A program made the translations under genes and the position numbers. Below the pieces are notes generated by a model. The model saw nothing but the letters and a program-made list of their open reading frames with translations, did not search any database and had not been told where the DNA came from. Positions 4,800-21,784 of a stretch of DNA of 26,074 nt are shown here, one piece after another. Within the stretch, counting starts at the first letter, position 1, and every line of letters begins with the position of its first letter. The stretch is taken from positions 1 through 26,074 of IMG/VR virus record IMGVR_UViG_3300009095_000063. The stretch is one strand, 5' to 3'. Source of the DNA: a virus. Lineage: Duplodnaviria; Caudoviricetes.

Positions 4800-5825
4800 A
4801 TGAGTGTATTTAAAGAGAGTAAAGCGTACAGACCATTCCAATACCCTTGGGCAGTAGAGGCAGCAAAGACTCACTCCATTGGTATGTTCTGGGATGTACA
4901 CCAAGTTGAGCTACAAGATGATCTTCGGCAGTACAATACTGCTGGAGGTCTTGCAACACCAAATGTGAGTCATGAAGTTAATAAGCGTAAGATTGATCTT
5001 ATTCTCCCCCTTTTCACAGAGATGGATAAAACTGTAGCTGGTGGTTATAAGAAAGTAATGCCTTATTTCAAAAACAATGAAATTAGTAACATGCAGTTGA
5101 CCTTTGCTTGCCGTGAAGTTACTCACCAACGAGCCTATGCATTGGCTGGGGAAACATACGGACTGATGGATGCTGACTGGTCTTCATTTCACGGGTATGC
5201 TGAGATGAGGGGGAAGCTTGATTTGATGTCGGATGATCTTACAAAACCTCACTACAGAGATGAGTTAAATGCTACAATCTCTTTGTGTCAAATTCTACTT
5301 GGGGAAGGTATCGGCTTGTTCGCAGCATTTGCTAACCTACTAAACTTTAAGCGGTTTGGGTTGCAAATTGGCTTTAATGATATCAACCAGTGGTCTTTGG
5401 CGGATGAGCAAGAGCACGTAACAAACAACATCCGTACAGTGAAAGAGGCAAGGAAAGAGCTTACAGAGGTCGAGCGGGAGATTCTTAAAGAGGCTGTGTT
5501 TAAACTTGTTCAAGCCTATGTAGACGCAGAGAAGGTTTTCATTGTACTTCTGGACAAGGAAGGGCCGGCTGAAGATATGACCAGTGAGCAGTTAGAAGAC
5601 TACATGAGCTTCCTAGGTGAACTTCGTCTATTCCAGCTTGGCTATCTCACTGCTGAAGAAGTGAGGAAGAACCCCCTACCTTGGATGGAGTGGCTATTGT
5701 CCGGGGAGAAGCATGATAACTTCTTTGAGAAGCGGGTTACTTCTTACAACCACCTTGGTCTTGTTGGTGGAGTGGATTACGGGAAATACAAACCACTGCT
5801 TGACAAGGTATTGTTAACTGGCTAG
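4800..5825 (+). CDS. nrdB: Ribonucleotide reductase class I beta subunit
   Basis: YRPFQYPWA, EVTHQRAY (ExxH plus radical Tyr), EGIGLF, DEQEH and NFFEKRVTSY. Confidence 0.95.
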   Translation: MSVFKESKAYRPFQYPWAVEAAKTHSIGMFWDVHQVELQDDLRQYNTAGGLATPNVSHEVNKRKIDLILPLFTEMDKTVAGGYKKVMPYFKNNEISNMQLTFACREVTHQRAYALAGETYGLMDADWSSFHGYAEMRGKLDLMSDDLTKPHYRDELNATISLCQILLGEGIGLFAAFANLLNFKRFGLQIGFNDINQWSLADEQEHVTNNIRTVKEARKELTEVEREILKEAVFKLVQAYVDAEKVFIVLLDKEGPAEDMTSEQLEDYMSFLGELRLFQLGYLTAEEVRKNPLPWMEWLLSGEKHDNFFEKRVTSYNHLGLVGGVDYGKYKPLLDKVLLTG

Positions 5826-5828
5826 AAT
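5800..5828 (+). promoter_or_regulatory. Sigma70-like promoter overlapping the end of nrdB
   Basis: TTGACA (5800-5805), 17-nt spacer, TAGAAT (5823-5828). Confidence 0.7.
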
Positions 5829-5837
5829 GCATACCAA

Positions 5838-5861
5838 GGGGAGGGAAATCCTCCCCATTTT
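5838..5861 (+). terminator. Hairpin after nrdB: intrinsic terminator or 5' stem-loop
   Basis: GGGGAGG-GAAAT-CCTCCCC followed by ATTTT, a short U-tract. Confidence 0.6.
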
Positions 5862-5873
5862 AAGGAGGGAGAT

Positions 5874-6044
5874 ATGACACTTGTATTTATATTTCTTGGA
5901 GTGATCTTGTTTGTAATGCTGATGGGATTGGGATGTAAATCAGTGCTTGACAAGCTTCAGGAAGTAGAAGAGAATGAACGTAAGCGAAGGGACTCACGTA
6001 TTGAGCCTTCGCTAGACGAGTCTAAAATGAATCAGGAGGGATGA
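5874..6044 (+). CDS. Small single-pass membrane protein, 56 aa, absent from the ORF track
   Basis: AAGGAGG RBS. Translates to MTLVFIFLGVILFVMLMGLGCKSVLDKLQEVEENERKRRDSRIEPSLDESKMNQEG. The stop overlaps the next start (ATGA). Confidence 0.75.
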   Translation: MTLVFIFLGVILFVMLMGLGCKSVLDKLQEVEENERKRRDSRIEPSLDESKMNQEG

Positions 6045-6331
6045 TGATTAATTTAATGATTGGCTTAGGAGCCTTAGTTTTGATTATCCTTGTAAGTATA
6101 GGTGTGTATCATCTAGCCAAGTGGTTGACAAACAAGGCTCCGACTAAGAAGAGTAAAGAAGAAGGCTTCAGCCTAATTGAGCTGATTATTATCATCGCGA
6201 TTATGGGCATCCTAGCTTCGATACTTGTTCCAGCTTATAATGAATGGGAAGCTAAGCAGCCGGTGACGGATGAAGCCACTCAACAAGAATTGCAGCGACA
6301 AGATGTTCGTAATAACGGAAAGATTCTTTAA
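6041..6331 (+). CDS. Type IV prepilin-like protein: class III signal and alpha1-N helix, no globular head, extra N-terminal TM segment
   Basis: KKSKEEG|FSLIELIIIIAIMGILASILVPAY contains G-1, F1, E5, G14, P22 and Y24 as in major pilins; AGGAGG RBS. Confidence 0.85.
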   Translation: MMINLMIGLGALVLIILVSIGVYHLAKWLTNKAPTKKSKEEGFSLIELIIIIAIMGILASILVPAYNEWEAKQPVTDEATQQELQRQDVRNNGKIL

Positions 6332-6350: not shown

Positions 6351-7205
6351 ATGCAAACTAAAGGTGTTGTAGGTTTGGTTGTACTAGCTATTGTAGCTGT
6401 GCTGGGTCTAAGTGCCGTACTTGGTAGCTTCTATACGGTGGATGATGGTGAGCGAGGTGTAGTTCTCCGTAATGGTAAGTATATTGGTACTGCTGAACCC
6501 GGCTTGAACTGGAAGGCACCATTTATTGATGATGTGCAAACTGTAAGTATTCGTACCTTTACAGTACCATATGCGGGCCTACAAGCTTACAGTAAGGATC
6601 AGCAGACTGCTACTATCCGCACTTCCGTAACTTTCAGTATCCCTGCGGGGAGTGTTGGCGAGCTATACTCTAAGTATGGTAGTGTTGACAACCTAGTAGC
6701 ACGAGAGCTTAACCGTTCTATCCCAGAACAAGTTGAGATTATCTTTGGTAAGTACAACGCTATCACTGCCGTACAGAAACGTGACGTACTGAGTGCTGAC
6801 GTAGCCAAAGCTATCAAGGGTGCAGTGAAAGGCCCACTGCTGATTGAGGGTGTTAAAGTTGAGAACATTGACTTCTCTGGTGCATATGAAACCTCCATTG
6901 AAGACCGTATGAAAGCCGAAGTGAAAGTTGAAACTGAGAAACAGAACCTTGCTAAAGAGCTTGTACTGGCAGAGATTACTGTAGCTAAGGCTCAAGCTCT
7001 TGCAGATTCTACTCTTGCACAAGCTAAGGCAGATGCTGAGTCAATCACTCTCCGTGGTGACGCTGAGGCTAATGCGATTAAGGCTAAAGCAGCAGCTCTT
7101 CGTGACAATCAGAACCTTGTTGAGCTGACTAAAGCTGAACGCTGGGATGGTAAGCTACCAACCACTATGCTCCCGAATGGGGCTGTCCCATTCCTACAGA
7201 AATAA
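6351..7205 (+). CDS. SPFH (Band 7/prohibitin/HflC-like) membrane protein
   Basis: Start reassigned to ATG 6351 after GAGGAG. N-terminal TM, YTVDDGERGVV, PGLNWKAPFID, Ala/Glu-rich coiled coil and ERWDGKLP. Confidence 0.92.
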   Translation: MQTKGVVGLVVLAIVAVLGLSAVLGSFYTVDDGERGVVLRNGKYIGTAEPGLNWKAPFIDDVQTVSIRTFTVPYAGLQAYSKDQQTATIRTSVTFSIPAGSVGELYSKYGSVDNLVARELNRSIPEQVEIIFGKYNAITAVQKRDVLSADVAKAIKGAVKGPLLIEGVKVENIDFSGAYETSIEDRMKAEVKVETEKQNLAKELVLAEITVAKAQALADSTLAQAKADAESITLRGDAEANAIKAKAAALRDNQNLVELTKAERWDGKLPTTMLPNGAVPFLQK

Positions 7206-9070: not shown

Positions 9071-9394
9071 TTATTGTTTATTCTTATTATTGTCTTTTAC
9101 ATCTCCCTTCAAAGCTGCATCCTTCACATTCAGCTCATCTAAGACCAGGGAATATCTCCTTTGATTCAAGTAGGCATCACTCTCAACCTTCTTGTGAAGT
9201 TTGTCCAGAGAGTCTAAGTATTCCCTTCTCTCCCTGTCCATCCTCTCCTCCAGTTCCTTCCTTAGAATCATCAACTCATAGTCTGCCTTGTGTGTCCTAG
9301 TGGCCAACCCCACAGAAACGGATACACTTCCAACCAATCCAACAGACAGAAGTATCATCACCGCCATCATGATAAAATCAGATTTTCTCTGCAT
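9071..9394 (-). CDS. Membrane-anchored coiled-coil protein of unknown function
   Basis: N-terminal hydrophobic helix followed by a charged helical region; last gene of the late operon. Confidence 0.7.
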   Translation of the reverse strand: MQRKSDFIMMAVMILLSVGLVGSVSVSVGLATRTHKADYELMILRKELEERMDRERREYLDSLDKLHKKVESDAYLNQRRYSLVLDELNVKDAALKGDVKDNNKNKQ

Positions 9395-18606: not shown

Positions 18607-19746
18607 TTACTCCGTAACTGGTAGATTCTTTACTGACATAGAGGCTAGTTCTTGAATCTTCTTCATAACAACTTCCCCTACAACTTGAGGATCACCAGAG
18701 CCATCTACATGGATTTCAACTTTATCAATAGTTGTAGTGTTCCCCATTGGCATATTAACGCCAGGAAGAGGGTATTTATTTGTCATCTCAGTAAGCATTC
18801 CGTTGCCTGGGCCTCTTTGGAGGTTTCTGATTCTCAGTCCAATTTCTTCCCTTTCAGCTACAATTCTTGGGTCTTCGCTGGCGTGGTATGCAGAAGTAAC
18901 TTGATCGTAAGCAATAAGACCACCTACAATAGCTGCTGTTTTAGGGTTCTTCTTAATCACAGAAACTGTAGTTCCTACAATGGAAGATAGAAGACCTTTA
19001 CCGCCCATACCTTTGGCACCGGGAATACCTCCCATAGCACCACCAATGCCGGCAATAGCTGTTGCAATAGCACCAAGGGCTAGAGCAAATCCACCAACTG
19101 CTGCTGTAGCTTTAACCCAAGAGTTTTCATCTAGGAATTCAAGTAGGTCTTTAGTGTAAGAATCTCCACCTCTCATGCCAACAGATATATCTTCTAGTAC
19201 AAGAAAGAGAACACCTGCTGCTGCTGCAATACGTCCAAATCTAGTTGCAAGTAATAGAGCAGTTGCTGACAGTGCAGCTAAATCAGCTTCAGAAGTTCCA
19301 AGATACTTAGACAACATTGAAAATCCATCTAGTAGATTATCAATCCCTTGGAAAGCTCTTTGAAAAATATCTCCAAGCTTGTTCCAAGCTTCACCCAGAC
19401 CAATAGCAACGTCATGGTTTTCTTTCATAAACTCAGCAATGGAGTTGAAGATTTTTGCAAACCCTTGTTCACCACCATTCTTAGAGAATATCCCTACAAA
19501 CTTTTCAAACTGGAAGTTCATCCTTCCTTGAGCAACAATAGATGTGCCAAGGGCTTTTGAATAAGCTCCACTTGTATCAGACATCTTTTCCATGTAAGCT
19601 GCCATCTTTGGTAGCAGTTCATTAGGGTTAAGTTGTCCAGCTTCCATCATTTTGTTAAGAGCTTTGGTGTCGCCACCAGTCATAACTTCAGCGGCAATTC
19701 TAACTGCTGCTGGTAATCTTTCAGCAAGCTGTCCGCGTAATTCTTC
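18607..19746 (-). CDS. Tape measure protein, exon 2
   Basis: The frame extends 21 codons upstream of the ORF-track Met (EELRGQLAERLPAAVRIAAEV); Ala/Gly-rich hydrophobic helices follow. Confidence 0.9.
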   Translation of the reverse strand, partial: EELRGQLAERLPAAVRIAAEVMTGGDTKALNKMMEAGQLNPNELLPKMAAYMEKMSDTSGAYSKALGTSIVAQGRMNFQFEKFVGIFSKNGGEQGFAKIFNSIAEFMKENHDVAIGLGEAWNKLGDIFQRAFQGIDNLLDGFSMLSKYLGTSEADLAALSATALLLATRFGRIAAAAGVLFLVLEDISVGMRGGDSYTKDLLEFLDENSWVKATAAVGGFALALGAIATAIAGIGGAMGGIPGAKGMGGKGLLSSIVGTTVSVIKKNPKTAAIVGGLIAYDQVTSAYHASEDPRIVAEREEIGLRIRNLQRGPGNGMLTEMTNKYPLPGVNMPMGNTTTIDKVEIHVDGSGDPQVVGEVVMKKIQELASMSVKNLPVTE

Positions 19747-19886
19747 CCTTTGTATTCAGGAAGGGTCGTTAATCCTTCCCTGCACCACTACGTGCGACTT
19801 CAAGTCTCCCTGAAGAGTAGACTATATCTTCACCCTGTTTATAAGGGTGACTCCCGTTTCCACCCACTTGGGTGTACGCCTTTCGG

Positions 19887-20438
19887 CTAGTCGTTGGAGT
19901 TCACTCTAAACTTTAGTTTTTCAATCTTATATTGACAAGATATATGCTTCCAAGCAATACCACAGCGTATCTTACTTGCTTGTTGTATACTTATACCAAA
20001 AACTTCAACAGCTTTCTTTGGAGTATTGAGTGAGCATTCTTCGTACCACTTACAAAGTTTATGAACAAAGTCTTCACTCAACACAGCCCTACCGTTTAAA
20101 GAACCTTTTGGTTTAGGGTTTAATCCAGTATCAAAAGCGTGTCTTATATTTTCTTGTCTAGTACACCATTCTAAGTTGGACAAGGAAGAATTATGCTTTA
20201 CCCCGTCCTTGTGATTGACCTCGGGTTTATTCTCAGGGTTGGGGAGGAAAGCCTCTGCCACAAGTCTATGGACTTTAAAGCTAAACCTTTTGCCGGAGAT
20301 TTTATACTGCCCGCATAAATAGCCAATCTTATCTTTCTTAATGTACCAAGGTCTACCTGTTTTAGAGCACCGTACATTCCCAAGGTTGGAAACCTCAAGT
20401 CTTGGTATGCTCCTAACAATTTCCCAGATTTCTAACAT
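19887..20438 (-). CDS. Intron-encoded HNH homing endonuclease (NUMOD4 + HNH + HTH-like tail, I-HmuI-like)
   Basis: EVSNLGNVR and VHRLVAEAFLPNPENKPEVNHKDG.K.N....NLEWCTRQEN motifs; GAGGAGG RBS; lies between intron elements Q and R. Confidence 0.93.
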   Translation of the reverse strand: MLEIWEIVRSIPRLEVSNLGNVRCSKTGRPWYIKKDKIGYLCGQYKISGKRFSFKVHRLVAEAFLPNPENKPEVNHKDGVKHNSSLSNLEWCTRQENIRHAFDTGLNPKPKGSLNGRAVLSEDFVHKLCKWYEECSLNTPKKAVEVFGISIQQASKIRCGIAWKHISCQYKIEKLKFRVNSND

Positions 20439-20439
20439 T

Positions 20440-20496
20440 CTTTACCTCCTCTGCTATGAAAAGATAAAGTCTAGAGTTTTACCTGCTGATTGTCAA
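20440..20496 (-). promoter_or_regulatory. Internal sigma70-like promoter and RBS-sequestering hairpin of the HNH gene
   Basis: TTGACA (20496-20491), 17-nt spacer, TAGACT (20473-20468). A 12-bp stem CUUUAUCUUUUC/GAGGAGGUAAAG spans 20469-20440. Confidence 0.72.
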
Positions 20497-20623
20497 CTTT
20501 ATTTTGTAGATTGTCAGGGGTCGTTACCTGTCACCAGATAATATCCTACTACAAACCTGTTGAGTTTCCAGCAATTAGAGAGTTGTTTCAATACACATTA
20601 CTGTGTAAAGCGCCTATAAATTA

Positions 20624-21784
20624 AGCGTATACCTGTTGTTTACTTACCATTTGCGACACCGCGCGAAAAGAACCTTTCATGGCCTCTTCATCAAGGCCCA
20701 TCACAGTGCCGTATTTCATAAATGATTTGAAGATTGTCTGCTCTTGACCACCAAGGGCTGTACCTTGAATAGAGGCTGCAAGCTTAACAAACTCAGGCCC
20801 AAGACCTCTTACCGTTTTACCCATCTCTGCGCCTACAGAGTTGAGGAAAGCCATGTTCTCTGCTGCTGCTTGTTCTGACCCAGATACAGCCAGCAAAGCG
20901 TTCTCTACAGATTTAAGCTCTTGTCCAATCTTATTGAAGTTAACAGCAGCGTATGCAGCACCGAAACCCGGAAGTAATCCAGACATACTGCTGGAAGCAG
21001 CTCCAACAGCACCACCCACTGTAGCACCACCAAACATACCTCTACCACCCGGTCTTCCAGCTCCCCCACCTCCCATTCTAGAAGCAATGGCTTGAGCCTT
21101 CAATTCAGCAGCAGTGATAATAGCAGCAGCTCTCTTAGCCCCAGCTTCTCTGATAGCAGATGTACGTTGAGCCATGATAGCTTCACGTCTAGCTACGTTC
21201 TCTTGGATTCTAGCTAAGTTTTGTGCAGCTCTTGACCTACGCATATCTTCACGCATTGCAGCAGCATGAGACTTGTCCATACCCTCGTAGGGAGATTGTT
21301 TAGCTCCGAACAAGCTGTCATACATTGACTGCTGAGCATTTCTGGCTTTGTTCGTCATATTAGACGACCCACCAGTTAGTCTACCTACACTCTCTCTGAA
21401 GTTTGTTTGCCAAGCCTTAGCATTCTTTCCCACTGCTCCGGGGCCAGACCACTTCCTAGTTTGCCTTGTAGCTCCTTCCCCAAACAACTTGTCATACATT
21501 GCTTGCTGGGAAGCTCTACTAACTTTATTGTTTGCTTGTTGTATCTTTCTAGTAACAGCAGCTCTCTTATTGAGAACCTTGTTACCATCAGAGATAGCTT
21601 TGTTTAAATTCTTATTCTGTGTAACTAAGCTAGAAGCTTGTTTAGCAGACTTCTTAGCACCAGCCTCCATATTATGAAGACCACGCTCAATATTATCTAA
21701 AGACTTGCCCAGACGATCAATAGACTTCTGGTCTACCTTAATACCAATCTGAGCAAAATAATCAGCAATCTTTTGTCTTGCCAT
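20624..21784 (-). CDS. Tape measure protein, exon 1
   Basis: Follows the tail chaperone. Ala-rich helical protein ending ...AVSQMVSKQQVYA, which joins EELRGQLAERLP to restore a tape-measure domain motif. Spliced product is 766 aa. Confidence 0.92.

What the first reader, a model, noticed from the sequence alone, without database searches (positions are those of the whole stretch)
6041..6331. Phage-encoded headless type IV pilin mimic with a membrane-tethered leader
Seen: residues 42-66 read G|FSLIELIIIIAIMGILASILVPAY, placing G-1, F1, E5, G14, P22 and Y24 exactly as in gammaproteobacterial major pilins (e.g. PilA FTLIELMIVVAIIGILAAIAIPQY). Only about 30 polar residues follow, with no beta-sheet head or Cys pair. 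The 42-aa leader has its own TM helix and a Lys-rich linker that would keep the cleavage site cytoplasmic. Known: prepilin peptidase PilD cleaves at G|F; in P. aeruginosa the pilin alpha1-N helix represses pilA through intramembrane contact with the sensor PilS; some phages disable type IV pili with non-pilin proteins such as PilB inhibitors. Inference: a lytic myovirus has no pilus of its own, so this may be a decoy. It could poison pilus or T2SS assembly, titrate PilD, or switch off pilin transcription, giving superinfection exclusion or motility control by mimicry.
Basis: partly seen in the sequence, partly recalled or inferred. Interest (0 to 1): 0.85.

Follow-up and report, generated by a model that had tools for sequence, protein, structure and literature searches.

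The report
Membrane-tethered headless pilin of a phage
A probably lytic, probably Pseudomonas-infecting phage carries a small gene for just the membrane stalk of a bacterial pilus subunit behind an extra predicted membrane anchor; it likely jams the host's pili to keep rival phages out, an untested idea already in print for anchor-less versions.

Summary
ORF 6041/6044-6331 passes the Pfam and TIGR prepilin cut-offs and has G-1, F1, E5, G14, P22 and Y24. A 30-residue Cys-free tail follows, and a predicted N-terminal membrane helix precedes it. Near-identical copies lie in runs of four other studies. The leader is retained, and G-1 and E5 are unchanged wherever the copy was fully seen.

The class is not new. 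Sztanko et al. 2026 list 59-65-aa truncated PilA proteins in six virulent Nankokuvirus phages and propose the same roles, untested. I found anchor-less versions of 31-82 aa in PX29, PhiW-14, KVP40, VH7D and a further T4-like phage. This scan also reported headless phage pilins on other DNA at least four times.

What is new is the membrane-spanning leader. It occurs in about 5 lineages, all headless, and in 0 of 149 full-length pilin hits.

Most likely, host PilD cleaves the protein and the stalk poisons type IV pilus assembly (about 0.45). PilS repression and a PilD sink are rivals.

Against this reading: the helix varies fast (11 of 18 amino-acid changes), one allele has F1S, and the window's allele sits further from the pilin consensus than two relatives. 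No function is shown.

The parts
5800..5828 (+). sigma-70-type promoter-like site (11 of 12 matches, 17-nt spacer) at the end of nrdB, upstream of the accessory cassette
   Evidence: a TTGACA-17-TAATAT site lies at the same place in the closest relative L019 (read from the sequence); activity not shown
5874..6044 (+). 56-aa ORF with a hydrophobic N-terminus; its stop overlaps the start of the pilin-like gene; dispensable
   Evidence: no Pfam, PHROG or NCBIfam hit; one contig of run X3 skips 5869-6041 and joins the upstream ribosome-binding site to the pilin-like start
5947..5975 (+). second sigma-70-type promoter-like site (10 of 12), 65 nt before the pilin-like start
   Evidence: 5 sites found against 3.3 +/- 2.1 in shuffles, so the count alone is not above chance
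6034..6039 (+). Shine-Dalgarno AGGAGG before ATG 6041/6044
   Evidence: sequence
6041..6331 (+). gene for the 95/96-aa headless prepilin-like protein; probable start 6044
6044..6118 (+). predicted N-terminal transmembrane helix of the leader (residues 2-26), uncharged to residue 24
   Evidence: hydropathy, AlphaFold2 helix 2-31; kept in all close alleles
6119..6166 (+). Lys-rich linker ending in Gly-1 (6164-6166), the predicted prepilin-peptidase site
   Evidence: cleavage not tested
6167..6238 (+). type IVa pilin alpha1-N helix (mature 1-24; F1, E5, G14, P22, Y24)
6239..6328 (+). 30-residue polar tail with no Cys and no predicted beta strand (no pilin head)
   Evidence: no significant similarity to the tails of 12 other headless proteins after allowing for 12 tests
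6351..7205 (+). downstream SPFH/Band 7 membrane protein gene; a neighbour, with no evidence of a functional link
   Evidence: PF01145, phrog_200; no prepilin motif within 4 kb of 18 other viral SPFH genes

Best explanation
The gene encodes a headless type IVa pilin stalk behind a predicted membrane anchor; the host prepilin peptidase likely cuts it at Gly-1, and the freed 54-residue stalk probably enters the host's pilin pool and spoils pilus assembly, which would keep pilus-using phages off the infected cell. Shown: the gene, its motif, the missing head and its retention in independent samples. Inferred: (1) the protein inserts as a two-helix hairpin with the Lys-rich loop and the G|F site in the cytoplasm; (2) PilD cleaves it; (3) the mature stalk, which keeps E5 and P22, is drawn into growing pili but has no head to pack or to be bound by phages, so pili are shortened, destabilised or masked; (4) the extra helix mainly helps a very short protein reach and stay in the membrane. 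On (4): 69 residues follow the first hydrophobic segment here, against 4-55 in the eight anchor-less forms measured.
For: The motif passes curated cut-offs. The reading frame is intact in contigs from four other studies and in P0002 (81% identical). G-1, E5, G14, P22 and Y24 are unchanged in the fully seen copies: P0002, P0152, P0153 and the listed differences of X3. Unrelated lytic phages keep the same bare helix, down to 31 aa in PX29, with G-1, F1 and E5 in all 6 cultured examples read, so the helix is the retained unit. The PAK_P3 copy (gp139) is transcribed, more at 13 than at 3.5 min (log2 fold change 3.6; PMC4933390 S5 Table); that timing fits a direct effect on existing pili better than a transcriptional one. 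Phage pilin-like proteins do enter host pili and block phages (P-FimU, PMC12952977). Gly-1 is critical for processing and E5 for homopolymer assembly (PMC4471445 passages). Nankokuvirus Epa24, which encodes a truncated PilA, is listed as needing T4P (PMC12838167 Table 1). Structural and replication genes point to Pseudomonas myoviruses.
Against: No experiment exists for any truncated phage PilA in what I read. PilD substrates are defined by a hydrophilic leader (6-26 aa in PMC4471445); cleavage behind a membrane-spanning leader is untested. Allele X4/P0153 has F1S and no longer shows TIGR02532 at E 0.01. The distant look-alike P0119 has Arg at -1. The gene diverges much faster than nrdB: in X2, 7 amino-acid-changing and 3 silent codons, against 0 and 15 in the nrdB part laid. 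The window's allele matches the pilin majority at 15 of 24 positions, against 19 of 24 for P0002 and P0152, which could be decay. The host and its pili are inferred, and the phage's receptor is unknown. The closest relative, L019 (84 kb, about 91% complete), has no N_methyl match, so the gene is dispensable.
Confidence: 0.45

Rival explanations
1. The protein is a membrane-locked false signal for the sensor PilS. The extra helix slows or prevents cleavage and extraction, so the helix accumulates like unprocessed prepilin and switches pilA transcription off.
For: Unprocessed prepilins accumulate in the membrane, suppress pilA through PilSR and give phage resistance (PMC13170266 section 7). The Nankokuvirus LSL4 already targets PilS with an unrelated 131-aa protein, PIT4 (PMC10714779 passages). 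E5 and P22 are kept in the TM-leader alleles. The TM leader occurs only on headless forms, and promoter-like sites could allow early expression.
Against: A lytic cycle is short and host transcripts are depleted anyway (7.2-fold late in PAK_P3 infection), so repressing pilA adds little. The PAK_P3 copy is a late gene. P22 is missing in 3 of 6 cultured examples; the E5/P22 requirement for PilS binding is recalled, not read here. Gly-1 is kept in all close alleles, which a never-cleaved ligand would not need. Whether the host has PilSR is unknown.
Confidence: 0.18
2. [quoted passage not shown]
For: PilD is of low abundance, and slowing it blocks both pili and type II secretion (PMC13170266). A two-helix hairpin could be released slowly. 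Gly-1 is kept while the rest of the helix varies.
Against: E5, G14, P22 and Y24 are not needed for cleavage (E5) yet stay fixed in the close alleles. A benefit of blocking secretion for a lytic phage is not obvious.
Confidence: 0.1
3. The gene is a captured pilin fragment under weak or no selection, or a small phage membrane protein that uses the pilin helix merely as a membrane anchor and does nothing to pili.
For: There are 18 amino-acid-changing against 10 silent codon differences over four alleles; 11 of the 18 are in the helix, including F1S and polar I-to-T changes. The window's allele is further from the pilin majority than two relatives. The gene lies in a variable cassette and is absent from L019. 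Small membrane ORFs lie next to it, so a chance fusion could explain the leader.
Against: No stop or frameshift was seen in any of the close copies. P0002 differs at 18 of 95 residues yet keeps every signature residue and is nearer the consensus. No longer parent with this leader was found (weak evidence by the tool's own note). The same truncation recurs in many unrelated phages. The clustering of changes is not significant against silent changes (Fisher p 0.43), so it does not distinguish decay from diversifying selection.
Confidence: 0.22
4. The stalk is half of a two-gene pilin or of a membrane complex, pairing with the downstream SPFH protein or another phage product, as a short bacterial pilin can pair with a separate head protein.
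For: The SPFH gene follows 19 nt after the stop and stays adjacent in the contigs that span both genes (X2, X3, X4). Short natural pilins (61-69 aa geopilins) are among the nearest solved structures; their pairing with a separate head protein is recalled.
Against: No prepilin motif lies near 18 other viral SPFH genes. The cultured-phage examples have other neighbours: thymidylate synthase, nrdB or small hypothetical genes.
Confidence: 0.05

Closest known systems
Truncated phage PilA (P-PilA) of Nankokuvirus: KPP10 gp132 YP_004306725.1, Ab03, Ab17, Ab06 (printed Av06), Epa24, G1 (Sztanko et al. 2026, PMC12952977, section 17 and Table S3); PHROG 10597
   Same: Virulent Pseudomonas myoviruses related to this phage; pilin alpha1-N plus about 30 polar residues (mature 53 against 54 aa); 44% identity over 50 residues with KPP10 gp132; the same proposed roles, untested.
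   Different: KPP10 gp132 has an ordinary 6-aa leader, lacks P22 and Y24 and lies at another genomic site. Tail similarity is not above shuffles (p 0.20), so common descent beyond the pilin motif is not shown.
Other annotated phage pilin stubs: Aeromonas phage PX29p038 (31 aa, after nrdB), Delftia phage PhiW-14 gp119 (44 aa), Vibrio phages KVP40.0030 (66 aa) and VH7D gp250 (67 aa), phage 1.081.O gene 058 (82 aa)
   Same: Headless class III signal with G-1, F1 and E5 in lytic-phage genomes, mostly among nucleotide-metabolism or small accessory genes.
   Different: All have 5-6-residue leaders with no membrane helix; their tails are unrelated.
P-FimU of F10-like Pseudomonas prophages (PMC12952977)
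   Same: Phage-encoded pilin-family protein that uses the host machinery; shown to enter the pilus and block phages.
   Different: A full-length minor pilin with a head that keeps pili functional, from temperate phages; this protein has no head and resembles the major pilin helix.
Non-pilin phage inhibitors of type IV pili: Aqs1 of DMS3 (binds PilB; PMC13436744), PIT4 of LSL4 (binds PilS and other kinases; PMC10714779), Zip (PilZ; 10.1101/2024.03.05.583538, listing only)
   Same: The same likely purpose: disabling pili to exclude competing phages.
   Different: Proteins with no described pilin likeness that act on the motor or on regulators; no mimicry of the subunit.
Short bacterial type IVa pilins (geopilin domain 1 proteins, PDB 2m7g and 9egp)
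   Same: alpha1-N helix with little or no head; among the best solved-structure matches.
   Different: Cellular, with a hydrophilic leader, and part of a host pilus system; the matches cover mainly the helix.

Membership tests
Type IVa prepilin (class III signal peptide) | Gly or Ala at -1 followed by about 21 hydrophobic residues with Glu5 | tested here: met
Type IVa prepilin (class III signal peptide) | hydrophilic, short leader peptide (6-26 aa in PMC4471445) | tested here: not met
   41/42-aa leader with a predicted membrane helix; only the last 16 residues are hydrophilic
Type IVa major pilin | globular head with an antiparallel beta-sheet packed on alpha1-C, mature length about 130-170 aa | tested here: not met
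   mature 54 aa, no Cys, no strand in the model; far below all whole-protein pilin equivalog cut-offs
Type IVa prepilin (class III signal peptide) | cleavage and N-methylation by PilD; incorporation into a filament | not testable with these tools
   needs bench work
Truncated phage P-PilA (Sztanko et al. 2026) | encoded by a non-temperate phage | tested here: inconclusive
   no integrase or repressor family among 40 window ORFs and the nearest cultured kin are lytic myoviruses, but the record is a 26-kb fragment
Truncated phage P-PilA (Sztanko et al. 2026) | [quoted passage not shown] | tested here: met
   54 residues after Gly-1; the extra 35-aa N-terminal extension is not part of the published description
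PHROG 10597 (KPP10 gp132 family) | full-length match to the 59-position profile | tested here: not met
   39.4 bits over positions 3-37 only, against 150.2 bits over 1-59 for KPP10 gp132
PilS-repressing pilin ligand | intramembrane binding to PilS and repression of pilA | not tested

The most novel reading that the evidence does not exclude
A phage two-helix precursor that the host's own prepilin peptidase cuts into two membrane peptides. The membrane-spanning leader is a recurrent phage invention that turns a pilin stub into a tethered, slowly processed decoy, and the fast-changing helix tracks host PilS, PilD or assembly-platform surfaces in an arms race. It would be the first class III signal with a transmembrane leader shown to be processed, and a new route to superinfection exclusion by lytic phages.
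Probability: 0.2. Interest if true: 0.75.

Novelty: new variant of a known kind. Interest (0 to 1): 0.45.

Why it matters
Truncated pilins of lytic phages are noted in print but untested. This locus gives a natural allele series (F1S, near-consensus and off-consensus helices) and a leader type that should separate three mechanisms: incorporation into pili, PilS feedback and PilD titration. A positive result would show whether PilD accepts a membrane-anchored leader. It would also give a 54-residue pilus inhibitor of possible anti-virulence use and help explain interference between phages in cocktails.

Tried and rejected
Searches that found nothing or were insensitive:
- tblastn of the protein, of a 50-aa part and of P0125 against cultured phages found nothing. 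These searches were insensitive, since other queries did find the class.
- A DNA pattern for the PAYxEW subfamily gave one chance match. The P0155 scan gave two leaderless loci.
- No genomic context could be had for P0002, P0017/P0155, P0034, P0119 or P0145, so their phage origin is not shown.
- ESM Atlas hits were all under 0.9 and are leads only.
- No RNA holder was listed for the locus. X1 may be the source sample and was not counted as independent.

Not done:
- A fold search, because the model has pTM 0.32 and is three helices.
- Complex prediction with PilS, which was not available.

Considered and rejected:
- An internal start at TTG 6125 (which would give an ordinary 14-aa leader): no Shine-Dalgarno-like sequence before it, and the TM-coding part has 4 silent against 2 changing differences. 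It is not excluded as a minor start.
- Holin: the lysis genes lie on the other strand at about 9.1-11.0 kb, and there is no holin family hit.
- The hit at Salmonella phage SE_PL was not a prepilin.
- The hairpin at 5838-5856 is not above shuffles (z -1.5).

Literature searches for a phage prepilin with a transmembrane leader listed none, but subscription papers are largely missing from that library.

Full report
Observation. The ORF at 6041-6331 (+) is as described. Gly42 is followed by F1, E5, G14, P22 and Y24, then 30 polar residues without Cys. It passes Pfam N_methyl (29.1 against 21.2 bits) and TIGR02532 (18.0 against 16.3); it was the only one of 40 window ORFs scanned with an N_methyl hit. 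A profile of 51 full-length pilins gives 47.8 bits, against at most 10.6 in 4,319 scored whole-protein shuffles (5,000 made) and 6.3 in 5,000 local shuffles. The training set was chosen with a query-like pattern, so this shows only that residue order matters. Residues 1-24 are uncharged and hydrophobic, and residues 25-42 hold 5 K/R and 2 D/E, which predicts a hairpin with the G|F site in the cytoplasm (inference from the positive-inside rule as stated in PMC10191384, passages). AlphaFold2 on an 8-row alignment gives three helices and no strand at pTM 0.32. A Shine-Dalgarno AGGAGG lies at 6034-6039. The conserved start is probably 6044, as contig X5 has lost ATG 6041 (depth 3.4, so possibly error).

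Setting. The window is a 26-kb virus record with nucleotide-metabolism genes on one strand and contractile-tail and lysis genes on the other. The nearest cultured phages are Pseudomonas myoviruses: phiPMW and Nankokuvirus at about 65% DNA identity in nrdA, tail sheath up to 52%, and tail-fibre N-terminus 80% to vB_PsaM_M1. Host and lytic lifestyle are therefore inferred. The gene sits in a variable cassette after nrdB, behind two sigma-70-type sites, between a 56-aa membrane ORF and an SPFH gene. The closest relative, L019 (NrdB 85%), keeps a promoter-like site at the same place but has other small genes there and no N_methyl match in its 84-kb record. In one search, 2 of 5 related records had a match; both are Nankokuvirus-type.

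Alleles. Contigs from four other studies (X2-X5) cover the gene with no indel or stop. One X3 contig lacks the 56-aa gene and places the upstream ribosome-binding site directly before the pilin-like ATG, so the long leader travels with the gene. G-1, E5, G14, P22 and Y24 are unchanged in P0002, P0152, P0153 and the listed differences of X3; three differences of X5 were not shown. Against the mimic reading, X4 has F1S. Tolerance of F1 changes and of acidic leaders by PilD is recalled from Strom and Lory 1991, which I did not read; the review passage seen says only that Gly-1 is critical and E5 dispensable for processing. Of 18 distinct amino-acid changes, 11 fall in the 24-residue helix (binomial p 0.0014). 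However, 4 of 10 silent changes do too, and the contrast is not significant (Fisher p 0.43); the changes are counted against one reference and are not independent. In X2 the gene has 7 changing and 3 silent codons, against 0 and 15 in the part of nrdB laid. The window's allele matches the pilin majority at 15 of 24 positions, P0002 and P0152 at 19, and P0153 at 14. Diversifying selection, recombination and partial decay all fit these numbers.

The class is known. PMC12952977 (abstract, sections 17 and 18, part of the tables, and part 2 of the supplement read) reports truncated PilA proteins of 59-65 aa in six virulent Nankokuvirus phages. It suggests that they enter pili without offering phage-binding sites, or inhibit assembly; neither was tested. 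I located KPP10 gp132. It aligns with the mature part at 44% over 50 residues but has a 6-aa leader and no P22 or Y24, and the tails are no more alike than shuffles (p 0.20). A search with it hit 166 phage records at E up to 10 (60 listed). I read seven hits. Five are headless (PX29p038 31 aa, PhiW-14 gp119 44 aa, KVP40.0030 66 aa, VH7D gp250 67 aa, 1.081.O gene 058 82 aa), one has a 99-aa Cys-containing body, and one was not a prepilin. Among 89 IMG/VR loci found by a motif pattern, most are full-length pilins. Five have complete ORFs of 42-84 residues after the Gly: four among small ORFs in the 4-6 kb held, and L105 with only 653 bases in view. The PAK_P3 copy, identical to KPP10 gp132, is transcribed and rises from 3.5 to 13 min (PMC4933390, passages and one supplementary row). 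Four earlier notes of this scan describe headless phage pilins on other DNA; I had read the paper before seeing them.

What differs is the leader. Of 270 proteins held, 1 without the motif and 38 with several motifs were dropped. Among the remaining 231, a hydrophobic leader was found in 10 of 62 short forms (mature up to 75 aa), 0 of 20 intermediate and 0 of 149 full-length. The 10 collapse to about 5 lineages: this one, P0017/P0155, P0034, P0119 and P0145 (Fisher p 0.0014). Caveats: the searches were seeded with the leader-bearing protein, many short hits are probably contig-end fragments, and the contexts of the four distant lineages are unknown. P0155 aligns over 78 residues at 41% including the leader. 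P0119 lacks Gly-1, and P0034 lacks P22. No longer protein with this leader was found (weak evidence). None of the cultured examples has it. Seven literature searches listed no phage prepilin with a transmembrane leader. Reviews define the leader as hydrophilic (PMC4471445 and PMC10191384, passages).

Mechanism. Shown: an intact, mobile, headless prepilin-like gene. Inferred: hairpin insertion, cleavage by PilD, entry of the 54-residue stalk into the pilin pool, and spoiled or masked pili that exclude pilus-using phages (0.45). The extra helix is most simply a targeting aid. It leaves 69 residues behind the first hydrophobic segment, against 4-55 in eight anchor-less forms. That short chains are poorly targeted during translation is general knowledge, not tested here.

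The PilS rival (0.18) rests on PMC13170266 (passages and section 7 part 1), where unprocessed prepilins repress pilA and give phage resistance, and on PIT4 of phage LSL4 binding PilS (PMC10714779, passages). It is weakened by the short lytic cycle, the late timing in PAK_P3 and the loss of P22 in several class members. Kilmury and Burrows 2016 was seen only as a citation; its E5/P22 result is recalled. A PilD sink (0.10), a neutral or merely anchoring fragment (0.22) and a partnership with the SPFH protein (0.05) remain. Whether related phages use pili themselves is mixed: Epa24 and Epa26 are listed as needing T4P plus LPS core, and three other Nankokuvirus phages as unknown (PMC12838167, passages). 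Other papers seen: PMC13436744 (listing and passages), PMC6058289 (passages) and PMC12426801 (abstract), where archaeal proviral pilins instead serve as receptors, a reminder that a viral pilin need not be inhibitory.

Verdict. A real feature and a new variant of a known but untested kind. It is not a member of the type IVa major pilins (no head, non-hydrophilic leader), but it probably works through the pilin helix. Interest 0.45.

Noticed in passing
window 5910-6039 and beyond, run X3 record of 436 bases: A second X3 contig matches the 56-aa gene and then continues into a start reading MNKLMIG, like the pilin-like leader, but too divergent to be laid; probably a more distant allele.
   Followed up: no
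window 5800-5861; L019 about 7001-7072: In both phages a strong sigma-70-type site overlaps the end of nrdB and is followed at once by a hairpin with a short T run, so the promoter lies just upstream of a terminator-like element at the head of a variable cassette.
   Followed up: partly
P0017 and P0155: Two members of one cluster with the same TM leader differ in tail length (78 against 104 aa), suggesting that the tail is dispensable.
   Followed up: no
L196 1390-1578 (phage Ab03-type record): The truncated PilA carries a three-residue duplication inside the hydrophobic helix (62 against 59 aa).
   Followed up: no
P0023, P0003-P0016 and others: 38 of 270 proteins held have more than one prepilin motif; P0023 has two, separated by a further membrane helix and a basic linker, like a tandem precursor.
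   Followed up: no
window 6351-7205: Phage SPFH/Band 7 (HflK/C-like) membrane protein; no relative above 50% identity among 18 viral loci found.
   Followed up: partly
window 9071-9394 (-): 107-aa ORF at the end of the lysis cluster with a weak, below-cut-off Pfam hit to SieB superinfection exclusion protein (E 0.009) and a hit to phrog_3899.
   Followed up: no
window 18607-21784 (-): An HNH/NUMOD4 endonuclease gene (19887-20438) lies between two 358- and 387-aa ORFs, upstream of the Dit-like gene where a single tape-measure gene is expected; possibly an intron or a split gene.
   Followed up: no
L202 (Aeromonas phage PX29): Its 31-aa pilin stub also lies directly after nrdB, as here; several other stubs lie beside thymidylate synthase genes.
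   Followed up: partly
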